The notes beneath the pieces were generated by a model. It was not told where the DNA came from. It did no database searches and saw only the letters and a program-made list of their open reading frames with translations. Below, piece by piece: positions 22,223 to 53,809 of a stretch of 64,000 nucleotides of DNA (positions within the stretch are counted from its first letter, which is position 1; each line of letters starts with the position of its first letter). Made by a program: the position numbers and the translations under genes. Source of the DNA: an uncultured Chloroflexia bacterium (GTDB lineage Bacteria; Chloroflexota; Chloroflexia; QHBQ01; JADMIH01); the NCBI GenBank assembly GCA_963797095.1, contig CAWCNY010000004.1, positions 663,632 to 727,631 on the forward strand, read 5' to 3'.

Positions 22223-22239
22223 CGCACACAAAGCAAGTA

Positions 22240-22320
22240 GTCCCAAAGGGACGCAAGAGAGTAGCCCAGGGCGTAAGCCCTGTGGTAAGGCAAGGAAAGT
22301 GCCAAAGCCCCGAGGGGCGT
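22240..22320. repeat. REP-like composite palindrome cluster
   Basis: GTCCCAAAGGGAC, AGCCCAGGGCGTAAGCCCTG and GCCCCGAGGGGC hairpins. Confidence 0.6.
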
Positions 22321-48090: not shown

Positions 48091-49470
48091 ATGCACAAAC
48101 GTTCTGATTCGGCGCTCAAAACCGCATCGCTGGAGGTCGCGTATCCACCCCAAGAAGAGCACACTGTAAACACTATGAACTCCCAGGTGCCACTCGCCGC
48201 CCGCATGCGCCCGCGCATTCTTGATGAGATTGTTGGGCAGGAGCATATCCTTGCTCCGGGCAAGACTCTGCGCCGCGCAATCGAGGCCGACCGTCTCCCT
48301 TCGCTCATTCTTTGGGGACCACCAGGCAGCGGCAAAACCACCCTGGCCCAGGTGATCGCCAACACCAGCCACCGCATCTTCGCGCCCGTAAGCGCCGTAT
48401 CCGCGGGTGTAGCCGACCTGCGCCGAATCGTCAAAGAAGCCGCCGAACGCCTGGCTGATACAGGGCAGCGCACGATGCTCTTCATAGATGAAATCCATCG
48501 CTTCAACAAAAGCCAGCAAGACGCCATCCTCCCACATGTCGAGGACGGCACGGTTACCCTCATTGGCGCTACCACCGAGAACCCATCCTTCGAGGTCAAT
48601 TCGGCCCTTCTCTCTCGCTCGCGCGTGGTAGTGCTCCAACCCCTCAAGCCTGAACACCTCGAACGCATAGTGGACAATGCCCTCACCGACAAGGAGCGGG
48701 GTCTGGGCGGCCTGCACGCCAGCCTCAGCGCCGACGCACGAACTCATCTGCTCGCCGTTTCAGACGGCGACGCCCGTTCACTCCTCAACACCCTTGAGCT
48801 TGCCGCTGTTTCAACACAACCCAACCCTGATGGACAGCGCACGATCACAATTGAAGTGATAGAGGACGCCGCCCAGAAGCGTTGGCTCCAATACGACCGC
48901 GCAGGCGACGGGCACTACGACGCCATATCCGCCCTCCACAAATCGGTGCGCGACTCCGACCCCGACGGCTCCCTCTACTGGCTGGCCCGTATGCTTGAGG
49001 CAGGCGAAGACGCGCTATATGTTGCCCGGCGCATTGTGCGTATGGCGACCGAGGATATCGGTATGGCCGACCCCCACGCGCTCACCCTCTGCATGGCCGC
49101 TCAACAGGCGGTGCACTTCCTCGGTATGCCCGAAGGCGAGCTTGCACTGGCCGAGGCCGTGGTCTATCTATCGGTCGCACCCAAGAGTAATGCTGTCTAT
49201 ACCGCCTACAGCATGGTCAAGGATGATGTAGCCCGCACCCGCAACGAGCCTGTACCCATTCACCTGCGCAACGCCCCCACCCGTTTGATGAAAGGCCTCG
49301 GCTACGGCAAGGGCTACAAGTACGCCCACGACTACGAGGGCGCGCAGGTTGACCAACAGCATCTACCCGATTCCCTGAAAAGTCGCCACTACTACCACCC
49401 AACCGATCGAGGCCACGAAGCTCGCATCAGCCAGAGAATGGAGGAACGGCGGACGACGAGTGAAGAGTGA
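48091..49470 (+). CDS. rarA: Replication-associated recombination protein A
   Basis: PLAARMRP, GPPGSGKT, IDEIHRF, GATTENP, SALHKSVRDSD, GYKYAHD. Confidence 0.95.
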   Translation: MHKRSDSALKTASLEVAYPPQEEHTVNTMNSQVPLAARMRPRILDEIVGQEHILAPGKTLRRAIEADRLPSLILWGPPGSGKTTLAQVIANTSHRIFAPVSAVSAGVADLRRIVKEAAERLADTGQRTMLFIDEIHRFNKSQQDAILPHVEDGTVTLIGATTENPSFEVNSALLSRSRVVVLQPLKPEHLERIVDNALTDKERGLGGLHASLSADARTHLLAVSDGDARSLLNTLELAAVSTQPNPDGQRTITIEVIEDAAQKRWLQYDRAGDGHYDAISALHKSVRDSDPDGSLYWLARMLEAGEDALYVARRIVRMATEDIGMADPHALTLCMAAQQAVHFLGMPEGELALAEAVVYLSVAPKSNAVYTAYSMVKDDVARTRNEPVPIHLRNAPTRLMKGLGYGKGYKYAHDYEGAQVDQQHLPDSLKSRHYYHPTDRGHEARISQRMEERRTTSEE

Positions 49471-49479
49471 AGAGTGAAG

Positions 49480-50250
49480 GTGCGCCCGTAAAGGGTCTTA
49501 GTGCCAGTGAGATTGCTCCGAACAATCTCGCTTCCTGAGGGAAAGGAAGCTACTCAGTGCCTTACCTCAAGAGTGAAAACTCGTGAGGGAACATAGCACG
49601 GCATCAGTAAGGGAAAACAATGGTTCCAGTCAACCGGAGGGTTTCTCAGAGTAATTTCGACATGGTGAAGGCTAAACTGCTTGAAGCTCAGAACCGAGTG
49701 GGGCAACTTGAACCGGGTGAGCAGGCTGGTGACAGGTGACAGCAAGGCTGGTGACACTCACTTTTGGCCCAACATCCCATTTCTCCTCATGATGGGATGT
49801 ACCCTCTAGGCCAACACAGTCTCAGTAAGAGAATAAAGGTTTGAACGAGCCACCTAAATCGAAAGCATCTGGTTTAAGACTAAACGGGGATAGCTCGAGT
49901 GTAAATGCCACTGCGTTAGATACAAGTCTGACACAAGGCTATGGTTGCAGGACCTGAATATTACACCAGGCTACGGAGCGAGAGTAGTAGTCAGTGGAGT
50001 AATGCCCACTCTCGGCGCACGTTAACGGCGTGTACAAGGCGAAGTCTCGCAGGTCCTTCACTTGCAAGGGGGAAAGGAGGAGCACATAGTGCCACAACAA
50101 CCGAAAATCCTACTTGCAATACTTGGCTTGCCAGCCAAGGAACGAAGGACGGGAAAGCCGAGATACTCAGAAATGAGTACGTCCGGTTTGGAGGCGAGGG
50201 CAGTGAAACCTGAGATAGCAATACCTCAAGGCGCACGGCCCTTAGCCTAC
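49480..50250 (+). mobile_element. ORF-less group II intron (subgroup IIA, Ll.LtrB-like), 771 nt
   Basis: 5' GTGCGCCC; GGGAACATAGCACGG and ACGGAG..GTAGTAGTC resemble Ll.LtrB as recalled; DV AAGCCGAGATACTCAGAAATGAGTACGTCCGGTTT; DVI with bulged A ending CCTAC. Removing it restores a perfect (AGTGAAG)4 array. Confidence 0.92.
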
Positions 50251-50293
50251 AGTGAAGAGTGACTACCGACTGTTAATAGTTCGATAATAGACC

Positions 50294-53200
50294 GTGGACC
50301 TGACCTGTCTTGCTTTTATCGGCGCAATCTTGCTCCTGCTGGGGCTGGGTGTGCTAGTCTATGACTCGCTTCGGCGCAAGCAAAACCAGAATCCCTATCA
50401 TTTCCCCGACGTTACAACCCATGCCCTTGACGATACGGCCCTTCAAGCGCAGCTACAGCCTTCCCCCCCTTCACAAACGAGCAAACCGCAAACTCCCGGT
50501 ATAGCAACAACCTTCTTGCGCCTTTATTCCGCGGCTGTACAGGCCGGTGGCAGGCGGATCAGCAGATGGAAGCAGCCTCGTAGCAGCCAGACAGCCATTC
50601 CCACAGTACAGAGTAGACCAACAGATCTCATGGCGCGCATAGCAGCCGTGATATCCCGCCGGGCATTGGTAGTAATCGTGACGGCCTCTCTTGCCCTCTG
50701 CGTCGTGAGTGTCACCATCCTGGTGACAGGCGCGAATGGTTCATCGAGACCTCCCGGCGTAGTGATAGGCATTGCGCGCTTTGCAGGCGCACCCCAGGAA
50801 GGGTCGTCTGATCCAACCACCTTGTTAGCCGACGATATCCTCCGAGGCGCGGATGGTGCTGCTATCACTATCCGCTCATCACGCATCGTCCCTGTGAACG
50901 ACTCGCAAGCCCAGGCCGAGCGCGCCCGCCTCGACGCCGATTTCCTCATCTGGGGCGATTTCGGGCCATCAGGAGCGATCACGGCCAACCTCGTCCTCTC
51001 ACCCGATTTCGCTCCTGTTACACAGCCGTGGCAAACCTATGACGATCCGGATCCCGATCTGCTGATCCTGCCCGCGAGTGCCACCGTCTATCTACGTGCT
51101 GGTGGTGGCCTCGATCCCCTCGTGCCTCTCTCACTCGCACTGGTACGCTGGCACTGGGGCGACTTTGCGGGCGCGTCCGTTGCGGCCTGGGGCGCGCAGG
51201 CCACCCTCGACGAGAATGGCGGCTCCAGCCTGGCACGCTTCCCATCCGTCGTGCAAGCCTACGCCCGCCTCGCCCAGGGAGACTATTCTGATACCGCTTC
51301 TGTCGTTGACAGCATTGAGGACGCGGGCGCTATCGGCCCGCCCGCGCTGCTTGCCCGCTCTGCCGCTCGCCTTCTCACCAACGATTATTCGGGCGCGAGC
51401 GACGATGCAAATCGCGTGATCTCCGACCGCGACGCTACAGCCGCCATCCTTGCTCGCGCTTACCTGCTTCGAGCCAGAGCACGCTACAACGTGGGCAGCC
51501 TTACCGATGCGCTCGGCGACCTCGATCAAGCCGCGCGCCTCGACCCTACCCTTCTGAGGGTTCGCCTCGAGCGCGCCGAAACTTACTATCGCCAGGCCCA
51601 GCCATCGCTCGCCAACGACGAGCTGGTCGCTCTCCTGAAGTCCGCCCCTTCAGCCGCTCCCGCCTACCGTCTGCTCGGCCTCGTGCGCCTTATGCAGGGC
51701 CAGCCCGATGGCGCTCTGGAACCGTTGAGCAAAGCCCGCGAGCTTTACGCTGGCTGGACCGACGCCCAACGCAAAGACGAAGCGCAGGCCGAGGCCCAGG
51801 GTGATAGCCACCGCGCCCATGCTGCCTCTGACAATATCGTAACGCTCAACAAAAGGCTGGCGGGCATCGCCCTTTACGAGGGGATGGCCTATGCAGATAA
51901 AGCCCGTAACGAGCCTTCCGAAAGCTTCCTTGCGGGCATATGGCGCGGCATTCGCGGCGAGCCATCGACAGCAGACCGCGCACTTGCCAGAATGCAAGAG
52001 GCATCCCGCCTCGACCCCCGCAGGCCCGATATACCACTCCAGATGGGTAGCTTCTACACGTTTCTCGGCCAGTTCGACAAGGCCGAAGAGCAGTTGCGCC
52101 TCGCTCTCGATCTCGATCCCAACTCGCCCGACTCTTACATGGCTCTCGCACAGCTACAAGAGAACGAGGGCAAAGCCGCCGATGCTATTTCTACGCTCGA
52201 ATCGTTCGTTGCAACCTCGCCCCGCTACTATCCTGCTTATGACTACCTCTACAATCTCTACACCTCGGCAGGCAACCCTCAGCAAGCCCAAGCGGCCCTT
52301 GAGAACGCCCTCTCCGTAGAGCCACTAACACCGGGTGACCACCTCTGGCGCGGGAAAATCCTGATTACCCTGGGCCGCCAGGATGAAGCAATTGGCGAAT
52401 TGCAAGCCGCCACCGCCGATCCCGAAGTGTGGGAGGCCCATTTCCTCCTTGGTAACATCTATGCGGACCAGGGACGTGGACCCGACGCCCTGGCCGAATA
52501 CCAGGCTGTGCTTGCCAAGCGACCCAACCACGCAGGCGCCTTGCTGGGCGCGGGGCGCTTGCTGGTGCTGGCGGGCAGGGGAGACGAAGCACAGACCCTG
52601 TTGGAAAGGCTGACATCGGTCGCGCCTTCCAACGTTGAAGGCCACATCTCTCTGCTTGGCCTGTTGCTGGCAAAAGGAGAGACCGACCGCGCGGTGGCCG
52701 AAGGGGAGCGTGCCGTGGCGGCAAACCCCGAGCGCGCCGACGCCTACTTCTTCCTGGGCACTGCCTACGAGGCCAGGGAGGATTGGGCCAAAGCCGCCGA
52801 CGCCTACAAGTCGGCCACCGACCGCAACCCGCAGGACTTCCAATCGTTCTTAAACTGGGCGCGTACCCTATTGCGGCAGGACCTCTATAGCTCCTCTATC
52901 GACGTGAGCAACCAGGCAATAACTCTTCGACCCTCCGATCCCCAGCCTTACCGCTGGCGGGCAGAATCCCAGCTTGCGCTTGGCAATGCCGATGGCGCGC
53001 TTTCGTCGCTCGGCGACGCAGTGCGGCTCGGCCCCAACGACCCATTCGCGCTTGCCCTCACCGCCCGCGCCTATACCACCAAAGGCGACGAGCAATCCGC
53101 TCTCGATTATGCAAACCAATCTTTCAAAGCCAGGCCGCAGGATGCTACAGGTCAGCTTGCCCTGGGCGACATCTACCTCACCTGGGGTCAGGCAAGTGAG

Positions 53201-53809
53201 GCCATCCAGGCATTCGGCACCGCCACCGAGCTAGCTTCCACAGACTATGACGTGGCGCTTGCTCTCACGGGCGAGGCACGAGCCTACATGCTATCGGGCG
53301 ATACGCAACACGCGATGCAATACTTCGCACAGGCCACCCAGCGCGACCCCAACGCGGGAGAGCCACACCTCTACCTGGGCACGCTTTACACTCAGGCGAA
53401 CGCCGGCGACGACGCTTTGCGCGAGTACCGCTCTGCCGTCGCGTTGCGCCCCAACTGGCCCCTTGCGCTATACTATGTCGGTAAGGCTTACCTGCTCCGG
53501 CGCGACCTCACCGACGCAGGCGCCTCCTTTTCCAGGGCGGTTCAGTATTCGCCCAACATGTTTCAAGCCTGGTTCGGCCTCGGCCTCGCCTACCGCGATG
53601 GAGGGCACCCACAGGAAGCGGTGCAGGCGTTCACCAAAGCCTCAACCCTCAAGCCCGACTACGCGGAAGCCTGGCTCTACCTGGGCCTTACCCTCGAAGA
53701 ATCAGGCGACCGGGCCAGCGCAACCGAAGCCTTCAGCCACGCTCGCGACACCGCCCCCACCGACGCCATCCGCGCCCAGGCCGAAGAAGGCCTCTCAAGA
53801 GTAAGATGA
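50294..53809 (+). CDS. Large membrane-anchored tetratricopeptide repeat protein
   Basis: Two N-terminal TM segments and about 20 TPR units (e.g. LKPDYAEAWLYLG). Confidence 0.9.
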   Translation: MDLTCLAFIGAILLLLGLGVLVYDSLRRKQNQNPYHFPDVTTHALDDTALQAQLQPSPPSQTSKPQTPGIATTFLRLYSAAVQAGGRRISRWKQPRSSQTAIPTVQSRPTDLMARIAAVISRRALVVIVTASLALCVVSVTILVTGANGSSRPPGVVIGIARFAGAPQEGSSDPTTLLADDILRGADGAAITIRSSRIVPVNDSQAQAERARLDADFLIWGDFGPSGAITANLVLSPDFAPVTQPWQTYDDPDPDLLILPASATVYLRAGGGLDPLVPLSLALVRWHWGDFAGASVAAWGAQATLDENGGSSLARFPSVVQAYARLAQGDYSDTASVVDSIEDAGAIGPPALLARSAARLLTNDYSGASDDANRVISDRDATAAILARAYLLRARARYNVGSLTDALGDLDQAARLDPTLLRVRLERAETYYRQAQPSLANDELVALLKSAPSAAPAYRLLGLVRLMQGQPDGALEPLSKARELYAGWTDAQRKDEAQAEAQGDSHRAHAASDNIVTLNKRLAGIALYEGMAYADKARNEPSESFLAGIWRGIRGEPSTADRALARMQEASRLDPRRPDIPLQMGSFYTFLGQFDKAEEQLRLALDLDPNSPDSYMALAQLQENEGKAADAISTLESFVATSPRYYPAYDYLYNLYTSAGNPQQAQAALENALSVEPLTPGDHLWRGKILITLGRQDEAIGELQAATADPEVWEAHFLLGNIYADQGRGPDALAEYQAVLAKRPNHAGALLGAGRLLVLAGRGDEAQTLLERLTSVAPSNVEGHISLLGLLLAKGETDRAVAEGERAVAANPERADAYFFLGTAYEAREDWAKAADAYKSATDRNPQDFQSFLNWARTLLRQDLYSSSIDVSNQAITLRPSDPQPYRWRAESQLALGNADGALSSLGDAVRLGPNDPFALALTARAYTTKGDEQSALDYANQSFKARPQDATGQLALGDIYLTWGQASEAIQAFGTATELASTDYDVALALTGEARAYMLSGDTQHAMQYFAQATQRDPNAGEPHLYLGTLYTQANAGDDALREYRSAVALRPNWPLALYYVGKAYLLRRDLTDAGASFSRAVQYSPNMFQAWFGLGLAYRDGGHPQEAVQAFTKASTLKPDYAEAWLYLGLTLEESGDRASATEAFSHARDTAPTDAIRAQAEEGLSRVR

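What the first reader, a model, noticed from the sequence alone, without database searches (positions are those of the whole stretch)
49459..50262. ORF-less group IIA intron apparently specialised to home into tandem heptamer repeats
Seen: a complete ribozyme outline (49480-50250) is inserted 9 nt after the rarA stop, exactly between units of (AGTGAAG)4. The stem-loop ACATCCCAT/ATGGGATGT presents U-CCUCAU (49784-49790), which pairs with GTGAAG|A as EBS1 (5/6) plus delta. An upstream loop presents CUCACU (49757-49762), pairing with the preceding unit as EBS2. Both EBS elements read the same unit, with an ideal target near (AGTGAGG)n. Established: IIA introns choose targets by EBS1/EBS2/delta pairing, and some intron classes exploit repeated safe sites (terminators, attC). 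Inference: this lineage uses the host's intergenic heptamer arrays as a multi-copy safe harbour. I do not know of a described case. The EBS assignment is by eye.
Basis: partly seen in the sequence, partly recalled or inferred. Interest (0 to 1): 0.85.

Follow-up and report, generated by a model that had tools for sequence, protein, structure and literature searches.

The report
ORF-less intron strayed into heptamer repeat
A small self-splicing group II intron that has lost its own enzyme gene normally lives in a jumping-gene (IS3 transposase) and has made one stray copy inside a 7-base repeat behind the rarA gene; this is ordinary intron behaviour, not a lineage built to target such repeats.

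Summary
Window 49480-50250 (+) is a complete 771-nt ORF-less group II intron, 9 nt after the rarA stop, splitting an (AGTGAAG)4.7 array.

The interpretation does not hold.
- A second copy (770/771 identical) sits in a non-repetitive site inside an IS3-family transposase gene, with a perfect 6/6 EBS1 match.
- The same IS3 site is occupied in a truncated third copy, in an 81%-identical intron of another Chloroflexota family, in a soil-metagenome contig, and by the ORF-containing parent type in another metagenome contig.
- Only 1 of 22 insertion sites examined for this intron family lies in a heptamer array.
The real EBS2 is CUUGAA (49707-49712).
- AGTGAAG forms a tandem array only once in this genome, and the "ideal" AGTGAGG array is empty.

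Best reading: a deletion derivative of an IS3-homing IIA intron retrotransposed once to an imperfectly matching site (EBS1 5/6, EBS2 4/6, delta 1/1) in a genome full of STRR-like heptamer arrays. It is a new member of a known kind. The scan had already noted these arrays elsewhere in this genome.

The parts
48091..49470 (+). rarA/mgsA-type AAA+ ATPase gene. Its last codons (S E E stop) are encoded by the heptamer array.
   Evidence: ORF list. Pfam MgsA_C E 1e-69, AAA_assoc_2, AAA. Conserved in 23 of 25 other same-genus genomes.
49458..49479 (+). 5' exon part of the heptamer array (G + AGTGAAG x3). It carries the IBS2-like UGAAG (-12..-8) and the IBS1-like GUGAAG (-6..-1).
   Evidence: Exact period-7 run at C4:713089-713110. 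Pairing EBS1 5/6 and EBS2 4/6.
49480..50250 (+). ORF-less group IIA intron, 771 nt, GUGCG...CCUAC.
49707..49712 (+). EBS2 (CUUGAA), unpaired, just 5' of the conserved hairpin.
   Evidence: Aligned 6-mers pair with exon -13..-8 at a mean of 4.6/6 in 10 cognate cases against 2.43/6 in 90 non-cognate pairs. Three relatives pair 6/6.
49715..49763 (+). Conserved hairpin, helix GGGUGAG (49715-49721) / CUCACUU (49757-49763), with conserved loop motif GGUGACA.
   Evidence: RNAalifold on 9 sequences: 7 pairs, 0 broken cells. 22-nt gap in the alignments. 22 nt left out at 49723 in the contig of run X2.
49772..49800 (+). EBS1 hairpin. Loop 49781-49791, delta U at 49784, EBS1 CCUCAU at 49785-49790.
   Evidence: 6/6 with the IS3 site AUGAGG and 5/6 with the array site GUGAAG. 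Delta pairs with +1 in 7 of 7 sites where the 3' exon is known.
50075..50139 (+). Domain IV remnant. It holds a Shine-Dalgarno-like GGAGGAG, a GTG start (50089) and the first 13 codons of the lost IEP gene (VPQQPKILLAILG, 50089-50127), then a capping hairpin CUUGGCU/AGCCAAG (50122-50139) at the deletion breakpoint.
   Evidence: The full-length parent type L101 has an IEP with the same first 13 residues and continues where this intron breaks off. L079 has the same breakpoint and a compensated hairpin.
50153..50250 (+). Domains V and VI, with AGC triad region, GAAA loop and an unpaired A near the 3' end.
   Evidence: RF00029, 43.7 bits, alignment shown.
50251..50262 (+). 3' exon part of the array (AGTGAAG AGTGA). 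+1 A is delta'.
50294..53809 (+). Downstream gene for a TPR-repeat protein with a hydrophobic N-terminus. Without the intron it would lie 52 nt after rarA. The same neighbour follows rarA in same-genus genomes.

Best explanation
The element is a non-autonomous (ORF-deleted) group IIA (mitochondrial-like, Ll.LtrB-type) intron. Its home site is a conserved spot in the C-terminal part of an IS3-family transposase gene (...ERLWRxxxxEE | VYLxE...).

Shown:
- Intron identity and exact ends.
- Loss of the IEP gene with a 13-codon remnant.
- EBS1, EBS2 and delta positions, by covariation with exons in relatives.
- Occupancy of the IS3 site in five independent contexts.
- Near-identity of the two full copies, which points to a recent copying event.

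Inferred:
- The copy behind rarA arose by a rare ectopic retrotransposition. The excised intron RNA, in a ribonucleoprotein with a reverse transcriptase supplied in trans, reverse-spliced into DNA at a site that only partly matches its guide sequences (IBS1 GUGAAG 5/6 with one G-U, IBS2 4/6, delta' A).
- The 7-base period of the array equals the IBS2-to-IBS1 offset of IIA introns. Adjacent units therefore offer both partial matches, at three equivalent registers, and the intron sits in one of them.
- The site lies in a 52-nt spacer between co-oriented genes, beyond the rarA stop, so the insertion breaks no ORF and can persist.

The array is one of about 1,200 STRR-like heptamer arrays of this Chloroflexota genome. 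It is not a dedicated target.
For: Intron and ends. The two copies differ at 1 of 771 positions.

Home site. The second copy is in an rve-domain ORF. An empty paralogue matches the IS3 family model NF033516 in three pieces. The same site is occupied in:
- the C5:4890-4925 remnant;
- L079, an 81%-identical ORF-less intron of another family;
- a 957-nt contig of run X2;
- L101, the ORF-containing parent type.

Guide sequences:
- EBS1 6/6 with the IS3 exon and 5/6 with the array.
- EBS1 cognate mean 5.44/6 (9 cases) against 3.81 non-cognate (81 pairs).
- EBS2 cognate mean 4.6/6 (10 cases) against 2.43 non-cognate (90 pairs).
- Delta pairs with +1 in 7 of 7 sites, switching between U:A and G:C.

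IIA class: the IEP of the full-length relative P0001 matches LtrA (5g2x) end to end at E 2.5e-130, against 2.6e-34 for a IIB protein. Pfam finds RVT_1, Intron_maturas2 and AI2M-like HNH.

Deletion derivative.

Register explained by pairing.

Not array-specific:
- 1 of 22 family sites is in an array.
- 0 of 22 3' flanks of all RF00029 hits in this genome carry 2 or more exact heptamers.
- There is only one AGTGAAG array, and the AGTGAGG array is empty.

Literature, passages read:
- IIA introns use EBS1, EBS2 and delta and integrate rarely into ectopic sites (PMC3898094).
- ORF-deleted introns keep ORF remnants and are mobilised by IEPs in trans (PMC2882425).
Against: - No cognate IEP is in this assembly (93% complete). 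The best reverse transcriptase is only 48% identical to the parent-type IEP over 241 aligned residues and 38% identical to P0001. The source of the mobilising protein is therefore unknown.
- About 11,251 genome sites pair at least as well as the rarA site, and only 114 of them (1.0%) lie in period-7 arrays. Under RNA pairing alone, landing in an array was about a 1-in-100 outcome. This is a single event picked out after the fact, but it leaves room for some array preference.
- No read or contig bridges the rarA junction or shows an empty allele. None of the 22 same-genus genomes whose rarA downstream region was read has this array. The state of the site before insertion is therefore unknown.
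- EBS2 pairing at the home IS3 site is itself only 4/6.
- L079's EBS1 loop pairs only 4/6 with its exon.
- Splicing and mobility were not tested.
Confidence: 0.8

Rival explanations
1. One reading: the intron lineage is specialised to home into tandem heptamer arrays, which it uses as a multi-copy safe harbour, with EBS1 and EBS2 both tuned to the repeat unit.
For: - The intron sits in an array at the register that pairing predicts.
- The 7-nt period equals the IBS2-IBS1 offset.
- The genome has about 1,205 period-7 arrays.
- Only 1.0% of equally good pairing sites lie in arrays, so the hit is not expected by chance.
Against: - The identical second copy and a remnant are in IS3 genes, with a better EBS1 match (6/6) than the array gives (5/6).
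- Only 1 of 22 family sites is in an array.
- The supposed EBS2 is a helix strand.
- AGTGAAG is arrayed once in the genome. The ideal AGTGAGG array and the 90 arrays of the AGTGACG family are empty.
- In-genus relatives of the intron (G001, G016) are not in arrays.
Confidence: 0.04
2. A weaker form: heptamer arrays are preferred ectopic landing sites for IIA introns. They repeat a partial IBS2+IBS1 motif in phase, and may expose single strands through slipped or hairpin structures. The lineage would not be specialised for them.
For: - Three equivalent registers exist within one array.
- Candidate sites are about twofold enriched in arrays (1.0% of sites against 0.55% of bases).
- The one ectopic copy seen is in an array.
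Against: - It rests on n = 1.
- None of the about 20 other group II introns of this array-rich genome has an array at its 3' flank.
- No inverted partner array is seen beside this site.
Confidence: 0.1
3. The array grew after the insertion. The intron landed at a single or double AGTGAAG-like unit, a one-base variant of the common GACGAGT unit, and replication slippage later expanded the units on both sides.
For: - Heptamer arrays differ between species at this very spacer: G017 and G011 carry other units, and most genomes carry none.
- The unit is one substitution away from the commonest family in the genome.
Against: - The two intron copies differ at 1 of 771 positions, so little time has passed.
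- EBS2 pairing needs at least the preceding unit to be present already.
- Nothing in the data gives the order of events.
Confidence: 0.05

Closest known systems
Ll.LtrB-type (IIA, mitochondrial-like class) mobile group II introns with LtrA-like IEPs
   Same: - GUGCG start and a domain V/VI match.
- EBS1 in a hairpin loop, with delta directly 5' of it pairing to +1 of the 3' exon.
- EBS2 pairing to -13..-8.
- Full-length relatives encode an RT-X-D-En protein that aligns with LtrA over its whole length.
   Different: - This copy has lost the IEP gene.
- No Rfam D1-D4 model matches it.
- The host is an uncultured Chloroflexota bacterium.
- The home site is an IS3 transposase gene, not a relaxase gene. 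The Ll.LtrB host gene is recalled, not taken from a call.
ORF-less TeI3 introns of Thermosynechococcus elongatus (PMC2882425, passages read)
   Same: - Derived from an ORF-containing intron by deletion in domain IV, with remnants of the ORF left.
[quoted passage not shown]
- Presumed mobilisation by an IEP in trans.
- The genome also holds twintrons.
   Different: - Those are IIB-like and have many copies, with related driver IEPs in the same genome.
- Here the class is IIA and there are only two full copies plus a remnant.
- The closest IEP in the assembly is 48% identical to the parent type.
Ectopic retrotransposition of Ll.LtrB (PMC3898094, passages read: 0.1 to 30 x 10^-6 in E. coli)
   Same: A single copy at a site that matches EBS1, EBS2 and delta only in part, away from the home site.
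   Different: It is inferred here from sequence only. The pathway (endonuclease-dependent, or into single-stranded DNA at a replication fork) is unknown.
Group IIC introns and attC-targeting introns
   Same: An insertion just behind a gene, in a repeated non-coding motif.
   Different: - Those classes lack EBS2 and recognise a hairpin, and many independent copies share the motif.
- Here the class is IIA, with EBS2, and only 1 of 22 sites is repetitive.
STRR-type heptanucleotide arrays (heterocystous cyanobacteria; noted earlier for this genome by the scan)
   Same: The target is one of about 1,205 period-7 arrays (407 of them exact and 21 nt or longer, in 77 unit families) at gene boundaries.
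   Different: This unit (AGTGAAG) is arrayed only once. No link between such arrays and group II introns turned up in the papers searched.

Membership tests
Group II intron ribozyme | Domain V/VI consensus (Rfam RF00029) above the gathering score | tested here: met
   43.7 bits against 40, window 50153-50250.
Group II intron ribozyme | GUGYG 5' end and AY 3' end, with boundaries defined by independent copies | tested here: met
   GTGCG...CCTAC. Identity with the second copy ends exactly there.
Group II intron ribozyme | EBS1-IBS1 pairing with the 5' exon | tested here: met
   6/6 at the IS3 site and 5/6 at the rarA site. Cognate mean 5.44/6 against 3.81 non-cognate across relatives.
Group II intron ribozyme | Self-splicing or protein-assisted splicing with a lariat | not testable with these tools
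   No RNA run covers the junction.
Subgroup IIA / mitochondrial-like class | Delta directly 5' of EBS1 pairs with the first 3' exon base | tested here: met
   7 of 7 sites pair: U:A, G:C and U:G, with a U:A to G:C switch.
Subgroup IIA / mitochondrial-like class | EBS2 pairs with exon -13..-8 | tested here: met
   Cognate mean 4.6/6 against 2.43 non-cognate. Three relatives pair 6/6. This intron pairs 4/6 at both of its sites.
Subgroup IIA / mitochondrial-like class | LtrA-like IEP (RT, X, D, En) in full-length members | tested here: met
   P0001 from L096 against 5g2x, E 2.5e-130 over residues 13-593. Pfam RVT_1, Intron_maturas2 and AI2M-like HNH. This was tested on relatives, because this copy has no IEP.
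Subgroup IIA / mitochondrial-like class | Match to a curated domain I-IV RNA model | tested here: inconclusive
   No group-II-D1D4 family matched, even at E up to 10. Those models may simply not cover this class.
ORF-deleted, trans-mobilised derivative (as TeI3) | No IEP gene, but a remnant of it at a fixed breakpoint | tested here: met
   13 codons identical to the start of the L101 IEP. The breakpoint is shared with L079. The internal ORFs have no Pfam hit.
ORF-deleted, trans-mobilised derivative (as TeI3) | A closely related IEP elsewhere in the same genome | tested here: not met
   Best hit is 48% identity over 241 residues. The assembly is 93% complete, so a cognate copy may be unassembled.
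   1 of 22 family sites is in an array. The ideal array is empty.

The most novel reading that the evidence does not exclude
Heptamer (STRR-like) arrays may be favoured ectopic landing pads for IIA introns. Their 7-nt period equals the IBS2-to-IBS1 offset, so one partly matching unit, repeated, offers both guide matches at several phased positions. That would link two so far unconnected features of array-rich genomes and give the arrays a role as sinks for retroelements.
Probability: 0.08. Interest if true: 0.6.

Novelty: new member of a known kind. Interest (0 to 1): 0.25.

Why it matters
It matters mainly as a correction: the proposed new targeting strategy is not there.

What remains is a modest addition to known biology.
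- It is an ORF-less IIA intron subfamily in Chloroflexota. Its members keep the same deletion breakpoint and home to the same IS3 transposase site in at least two bacterial families.
- It appears to have been mobile recently in a genome that, as assembled, lacks a cognate reverse transcriptase.
- A review (PMC4424553, passages read) calls bacterial ORF-less introns rare and says they nearly always occur alongside a related IEP. A case without one would therefore be worth a look if a closed genome confirmed it.

Tried and rejected
- An Rfam scan of the intron at E up to 10 gave no domain I-IV family.
- The minimum-free-energy fold of the whole intron paired the 5' end with domain VI and did not give a group II architecture. 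I did not use it.
- A phylum-wide DNA search of 400 other genomes, with only 2 candidates scored per genome, found nothing beyond this genome. It says little about absence.
- Sequencing runs: no run held more than 0.21 of the sampled words. Of the four runs laid, none bridges the rarA-intron junction or shows a joint, and X4 laid nothing. There is therefore no empty-site allele and no spliced junction to report.
- I looked for EBS2 in the conserved GGUGACA loop and in the internal loop 3' of the EBS1 hairpin. I rejected both. The first is invariant across different exons, and the second matched in one relative only.
- A sensitive blastn of the intron against the resident twintron loci found only domain V-level similarity.
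- The exact-pattern scan of genome contigs returned two loci. Their flanks, where compared (for L100), or their length and match position (L099) equal those of L079 and L080, so I did not count them as new sites.
- One search failed on a wrong reading frame for one exon fragment. I sent it again without that fragment.
Full report
**1. What is in the sequence**

Window 49480-50250 (+) is a 771-nt element that starts GTGCG and ends CCTAC.
- Rfam's group II domain V/VI model matches 50153-50250 at 43.7 bits, above the gathering score of 40.
- The upstream ORF 48091-49470 is an MgsA/RarA AAA+ ATPase. Its TGA stop is at 49468-49470, so the intron follows after 9 nt.
- The flanks read G(AGTGAAG)3 | intron | AGTGAAG AGTGAC.
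- The array starts at 49458, so it also encodes the last rarA codons and the stop.
- The next gene, a TPR protein, starts at 50294. Without the intron the spacer would be 52 nt.
- ORFs inside the intron (90 and 81 aa) have no Pfam match.

**2. Other copies in the same genome**

The window is G000:C4:663632-727631. The genome has 6.02 Mb in 8 contigs and is 93% complete.
- A second full copy lies at C6:300490-301260 (minus strand) and differs at 1 of 771 positions. Its flanks are ...atcaactATGAGG | Aggtgtacctg..., with no repeat. They translate to ...ERLWRTINYEE | VYLHEY..., an rve integrase-core ORF.
- A paralogous, intron-free copy of this insertion sequence matches the IS3 family model NF033516 in three pieces of 34.7, 74.7 and 139.3 bits.
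- At C5:4890-4925 a 36-nt 3' remnant of the intron, 94% identical, is followed by the same IS3 3' exon.

The IS3 gene is thus occupied in two IS copies, against one heptamer site.

**3. Relatives elsewhere**

Searches of relatives and of one other family of the same class and exact-pattern scans gave the following.
- L079 is a 732-nt ORF-less intron, 81% identical to this one. It sits in an IS3-type site (...ERLWRSVKQEE | ...) in a genome of another family.
- L101 is a metagenome contig with the ORF-containing parent type, 86% identical over intron positions 1-648. It is again in the IS3 site (...ERLWRTVKYEE | ).
- A 957-nt contig of soil run X2 carries a copy laid at the 90% threshold (36 other letters and 42 gap positions over 778 nt). 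Its loose ends read as IS3 exons.
- More distant members lie in IS6-like transposase genes (L039, L047) and in other unique sequence.
- L094, L095 and L096 are full-length, at about 2.48-2.51 kb, with 617-620-aa open reading frames.

I tested 60-nt flanks of 22 insertion sites of the family for two or more exact heptamer units, and 1 of 22, the rarA site, has them.
- Some rows may be the two ends of one copy (L080 and L086).
- L043, L040 and L050 are the same kind of site in related genomes.
- One row (L040) comes from the unpublished genome G016.

Of the 22 domain V hits in G000, 0 have such repeats in the 60 nt after the intron. The rarA copy's own 3' side holds fewer than two full units.

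**4. Class**

- The IEP of L096 (P0001) aligns with LtrA of Ll.LtrB (5g2x) over residues 13-593 at E 2.5e-130. The next best matches are around E 1e-45 or weaker, and a IIB protein (6me0) scores 2.6e-34.
- Pfam finds RVT_1, Intron_maturas2 and the AI2M-like HNH domain.
- The base directly 5' of EBS1 pairs with the first 3' exon base in 7 of 7 sites, switching between U:A and G:C. This is the IIA delta-delta' arrangement described in PMC3898094 (passages read).

**5. Guide sequences**

An alignment of nine family members folded with RNAalifold gives 28 pairs, 24 of them with compensatory changes.

EBS1:
- The EBS1 hairpin is confirmed. In this intron the loop is 49781-49791, EBS1 is CCUCAU at 49785-49790 and delta is U at 49784.
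- EBS1 pairs 6/6 with the IS3 exon AUGAGG and 5/6 (one G-U, one C-A mismatch) with the array's GUGAAG.
- Across relatives, the best 6-mer in the loop pairs with the cognate exon at a mean of 5.44/6 (9 cases). Against non-cognate exons the mean is 3.81 (81 pairs), and 1.2% of those reach 6/6.

- CUCACU (49757-49762) is the 3' strand of a 7-bp helix with GGGUGAG (49715-49721).
- No cell of that helix is broken in nine sequences, and four pairs change on both sides.

The real EBS2:
- It is the unpaired 6-mer just 5' of that helix, CUUGAA at 49707-49712.
- Aligned 6-mers pair with exon -13..-8 at a mean of 4.6/6 in 10 cognate cases against 2.43 in 90 non-cognate pairs.
- L044, L094 and L036 pair 6/6.
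- This intron's EBS2 pairs 4/6 at both the IS3 site and the array site. It pairs 5/5 at -12..-8 with the UCAAG of the L079-type IS3 site, by my hand comparison of the table.

Weak points are L079, whose EBS1 loop pairs only 4/6 with its own exon, and L083, whose EBS2 pairs 2/6.

**6. Origin of the ORF-less form**

- After a GGAGGAG and a GTG at 50089, the intron keeps 13 codons (VPQQPKILLAILG).
- These are identical to the start of the IEP in L101, whose ORF continues exactly where this intron breaks off.
- L079 has the same breakpoint. It also has the same capping hairpin, with compensated changes (CUUGGCU/AGCCAAG here, CUUAGC/GCUAAG there).
- Other ORF-less relatives (L044, L083, L037, L038) have different remnants.

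This is the pattern described for the TeI3 introns of T. elongatus (PMC2882425, passages read).

**7. The mobilising protein**

- G000 has 22 domain V hits and 10 maturase-domain hits, including five loci with full-length LtrA-like ORFs.
- These are only 35-38% identical to P0001. The best is 48% identical to the L101 IEP over 241 residues.
- Their ribozymes show no more than domain V-level similarity to this intron.

A cognate IEP is thus not in the assembly, although the two copies are nearly identical. PMC4424553 (passages read) says ORF-less bacterial introns nearly always share a genome with a related IEP. A less related resident IEP may act on this intron, or the cognate copy may be unassembled or lost.

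**8. The heptamer background**

- TRF finds 1,205 period-7 arrays covering 33,125 nt, or 0.55% of the genome.
- 407 arrays are exact runs of 21 nt or more, in 77 unit families. The AGTGACG family has 90, AGTGAAG has 1 and AGTGAGG has 1.
- Earlier notes of this scan describe the same STRR-like arrays in this uncultured Chloroflexota genome. I confirmed their abundance but did not study them further.
- The only tandem AGTGAAG array is the one holding the intron.
- I read the rarA downstream region in 22 same-genus genomes, three of them unpublished (G016, G021, G022). None has this array or the intron. G017 and G011 carry other heptamer units there, and most have none.

**9. Was the array hit by chance?**

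- Counting G-U as a pair, 11,251 genome positions match EBS1 at 5/6 or better, EBS2 (CUUGA) at 4/5 or better, and delta. Of these, 114 (1.0%) lie in period-7 arrays.
- Pairing alone therefore does not single out this site, and an array hit was about a 1-in-100 outcome. This is one event, chosen for attention because it looked odd, so I give it little weight. It is still the reason I keep a weak "arrays are favoured ectopic sites" reading alive.
- Within the local sequence the observed position and its two 7-nt shifts score 10 of 13. Every other position within 30 nt upstream and 20 nt downstream scores 9 or less. The register is therefore explained by pairing.

**10. Verdict**

- It is a deletion derivative of an IS3-homing intron, and the rarA copy is best read as one ectopic retrotransposition into a partly matching site.
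- Searches of the paper library for group II introns with STRR, heptanucleotide or tandem-repeat terms gave nothing relevant. The supplements of the papers cited were not available to me.

Noticed in passing
G000:C2:822379-826468 (-), C3:569041-573007 (+), C1:492792-495757 (+), C3:116393-119358 (+): Twintrons, each present twice. A full-length intron with an LtrA-like ORF ends directly before codons F-V-V or F-I-I of another intron's reverse transcriptase ORF, by recalled motif order just after its YADD motif. The outer intron's maturase domain and domain V follow about 1 kb later.
   Followed up: partly
G000:C6:301503-302231 (-), locus L098: The IS3 copy that hosts the second copy of the intron carries another ORF-less intron of 729 nt, 242 nt upstream (...VLDWHSR | YIVSW...). 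It is 70-81% similar to ribozyme parts of the resident full-length LtrA-type introns, so one transposase gene holds two ORF-less introns of different families.
   Followed up: partly
window 49458-49470: The heptamer array overlaps the end of rarA. The last codons (S E E) and the TGA stop are made of repeat units, and same-genus orthologues end differently.
   Followed up: partly
window 49723-49744: A 22-nt internal duplication (repeating GGCUGGUGACA-like sequence) lies in the loop of the conserved domain I hairpin. It is present in both G000 copies but absent from L079, from all other relatives and from the X2 contig.
   Followed up: partly
L038 (G001:C143) and L083 (G452:C83): Two ORF-less relatives begin GCACG instead of GUGCG, yet L038's EBS1 still pairs 6/6 with its exon. 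In L038 a group-II-D1D4-7 match (107.9 bits) starts inside or at the end of its domain VI, so another intron seems to be nested there.
   Followed up: no
window 22239-22284 (-): Acido-Lenti-1 RNA motif (RF01687), 47.4 bits against a gathering score of 37, in a Chloroflexota genome.
   Followed up: no
L052 (G017) and L059 (G011), downstream of rarA: The same rarA spacer in two other species of the genus holds different heptamer arrays, apparently as inverted pairs (GGGTTAG-like / CCCTAAC-like; CGAATTA-like / TAATTCG-like). This spacer seems to gain and lose arrays repeatedly.
   Followed up: no
window 49480-49486 and 50230-50236: The intron's first 7 nt (GUGCGCC) are exactly complementary to GGCGCAC in the domain VI extension. 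The GCGC core recurs in relatives. The MFE fold pairs them, but I could not tell whether this has any meaning.
   Followed up: no
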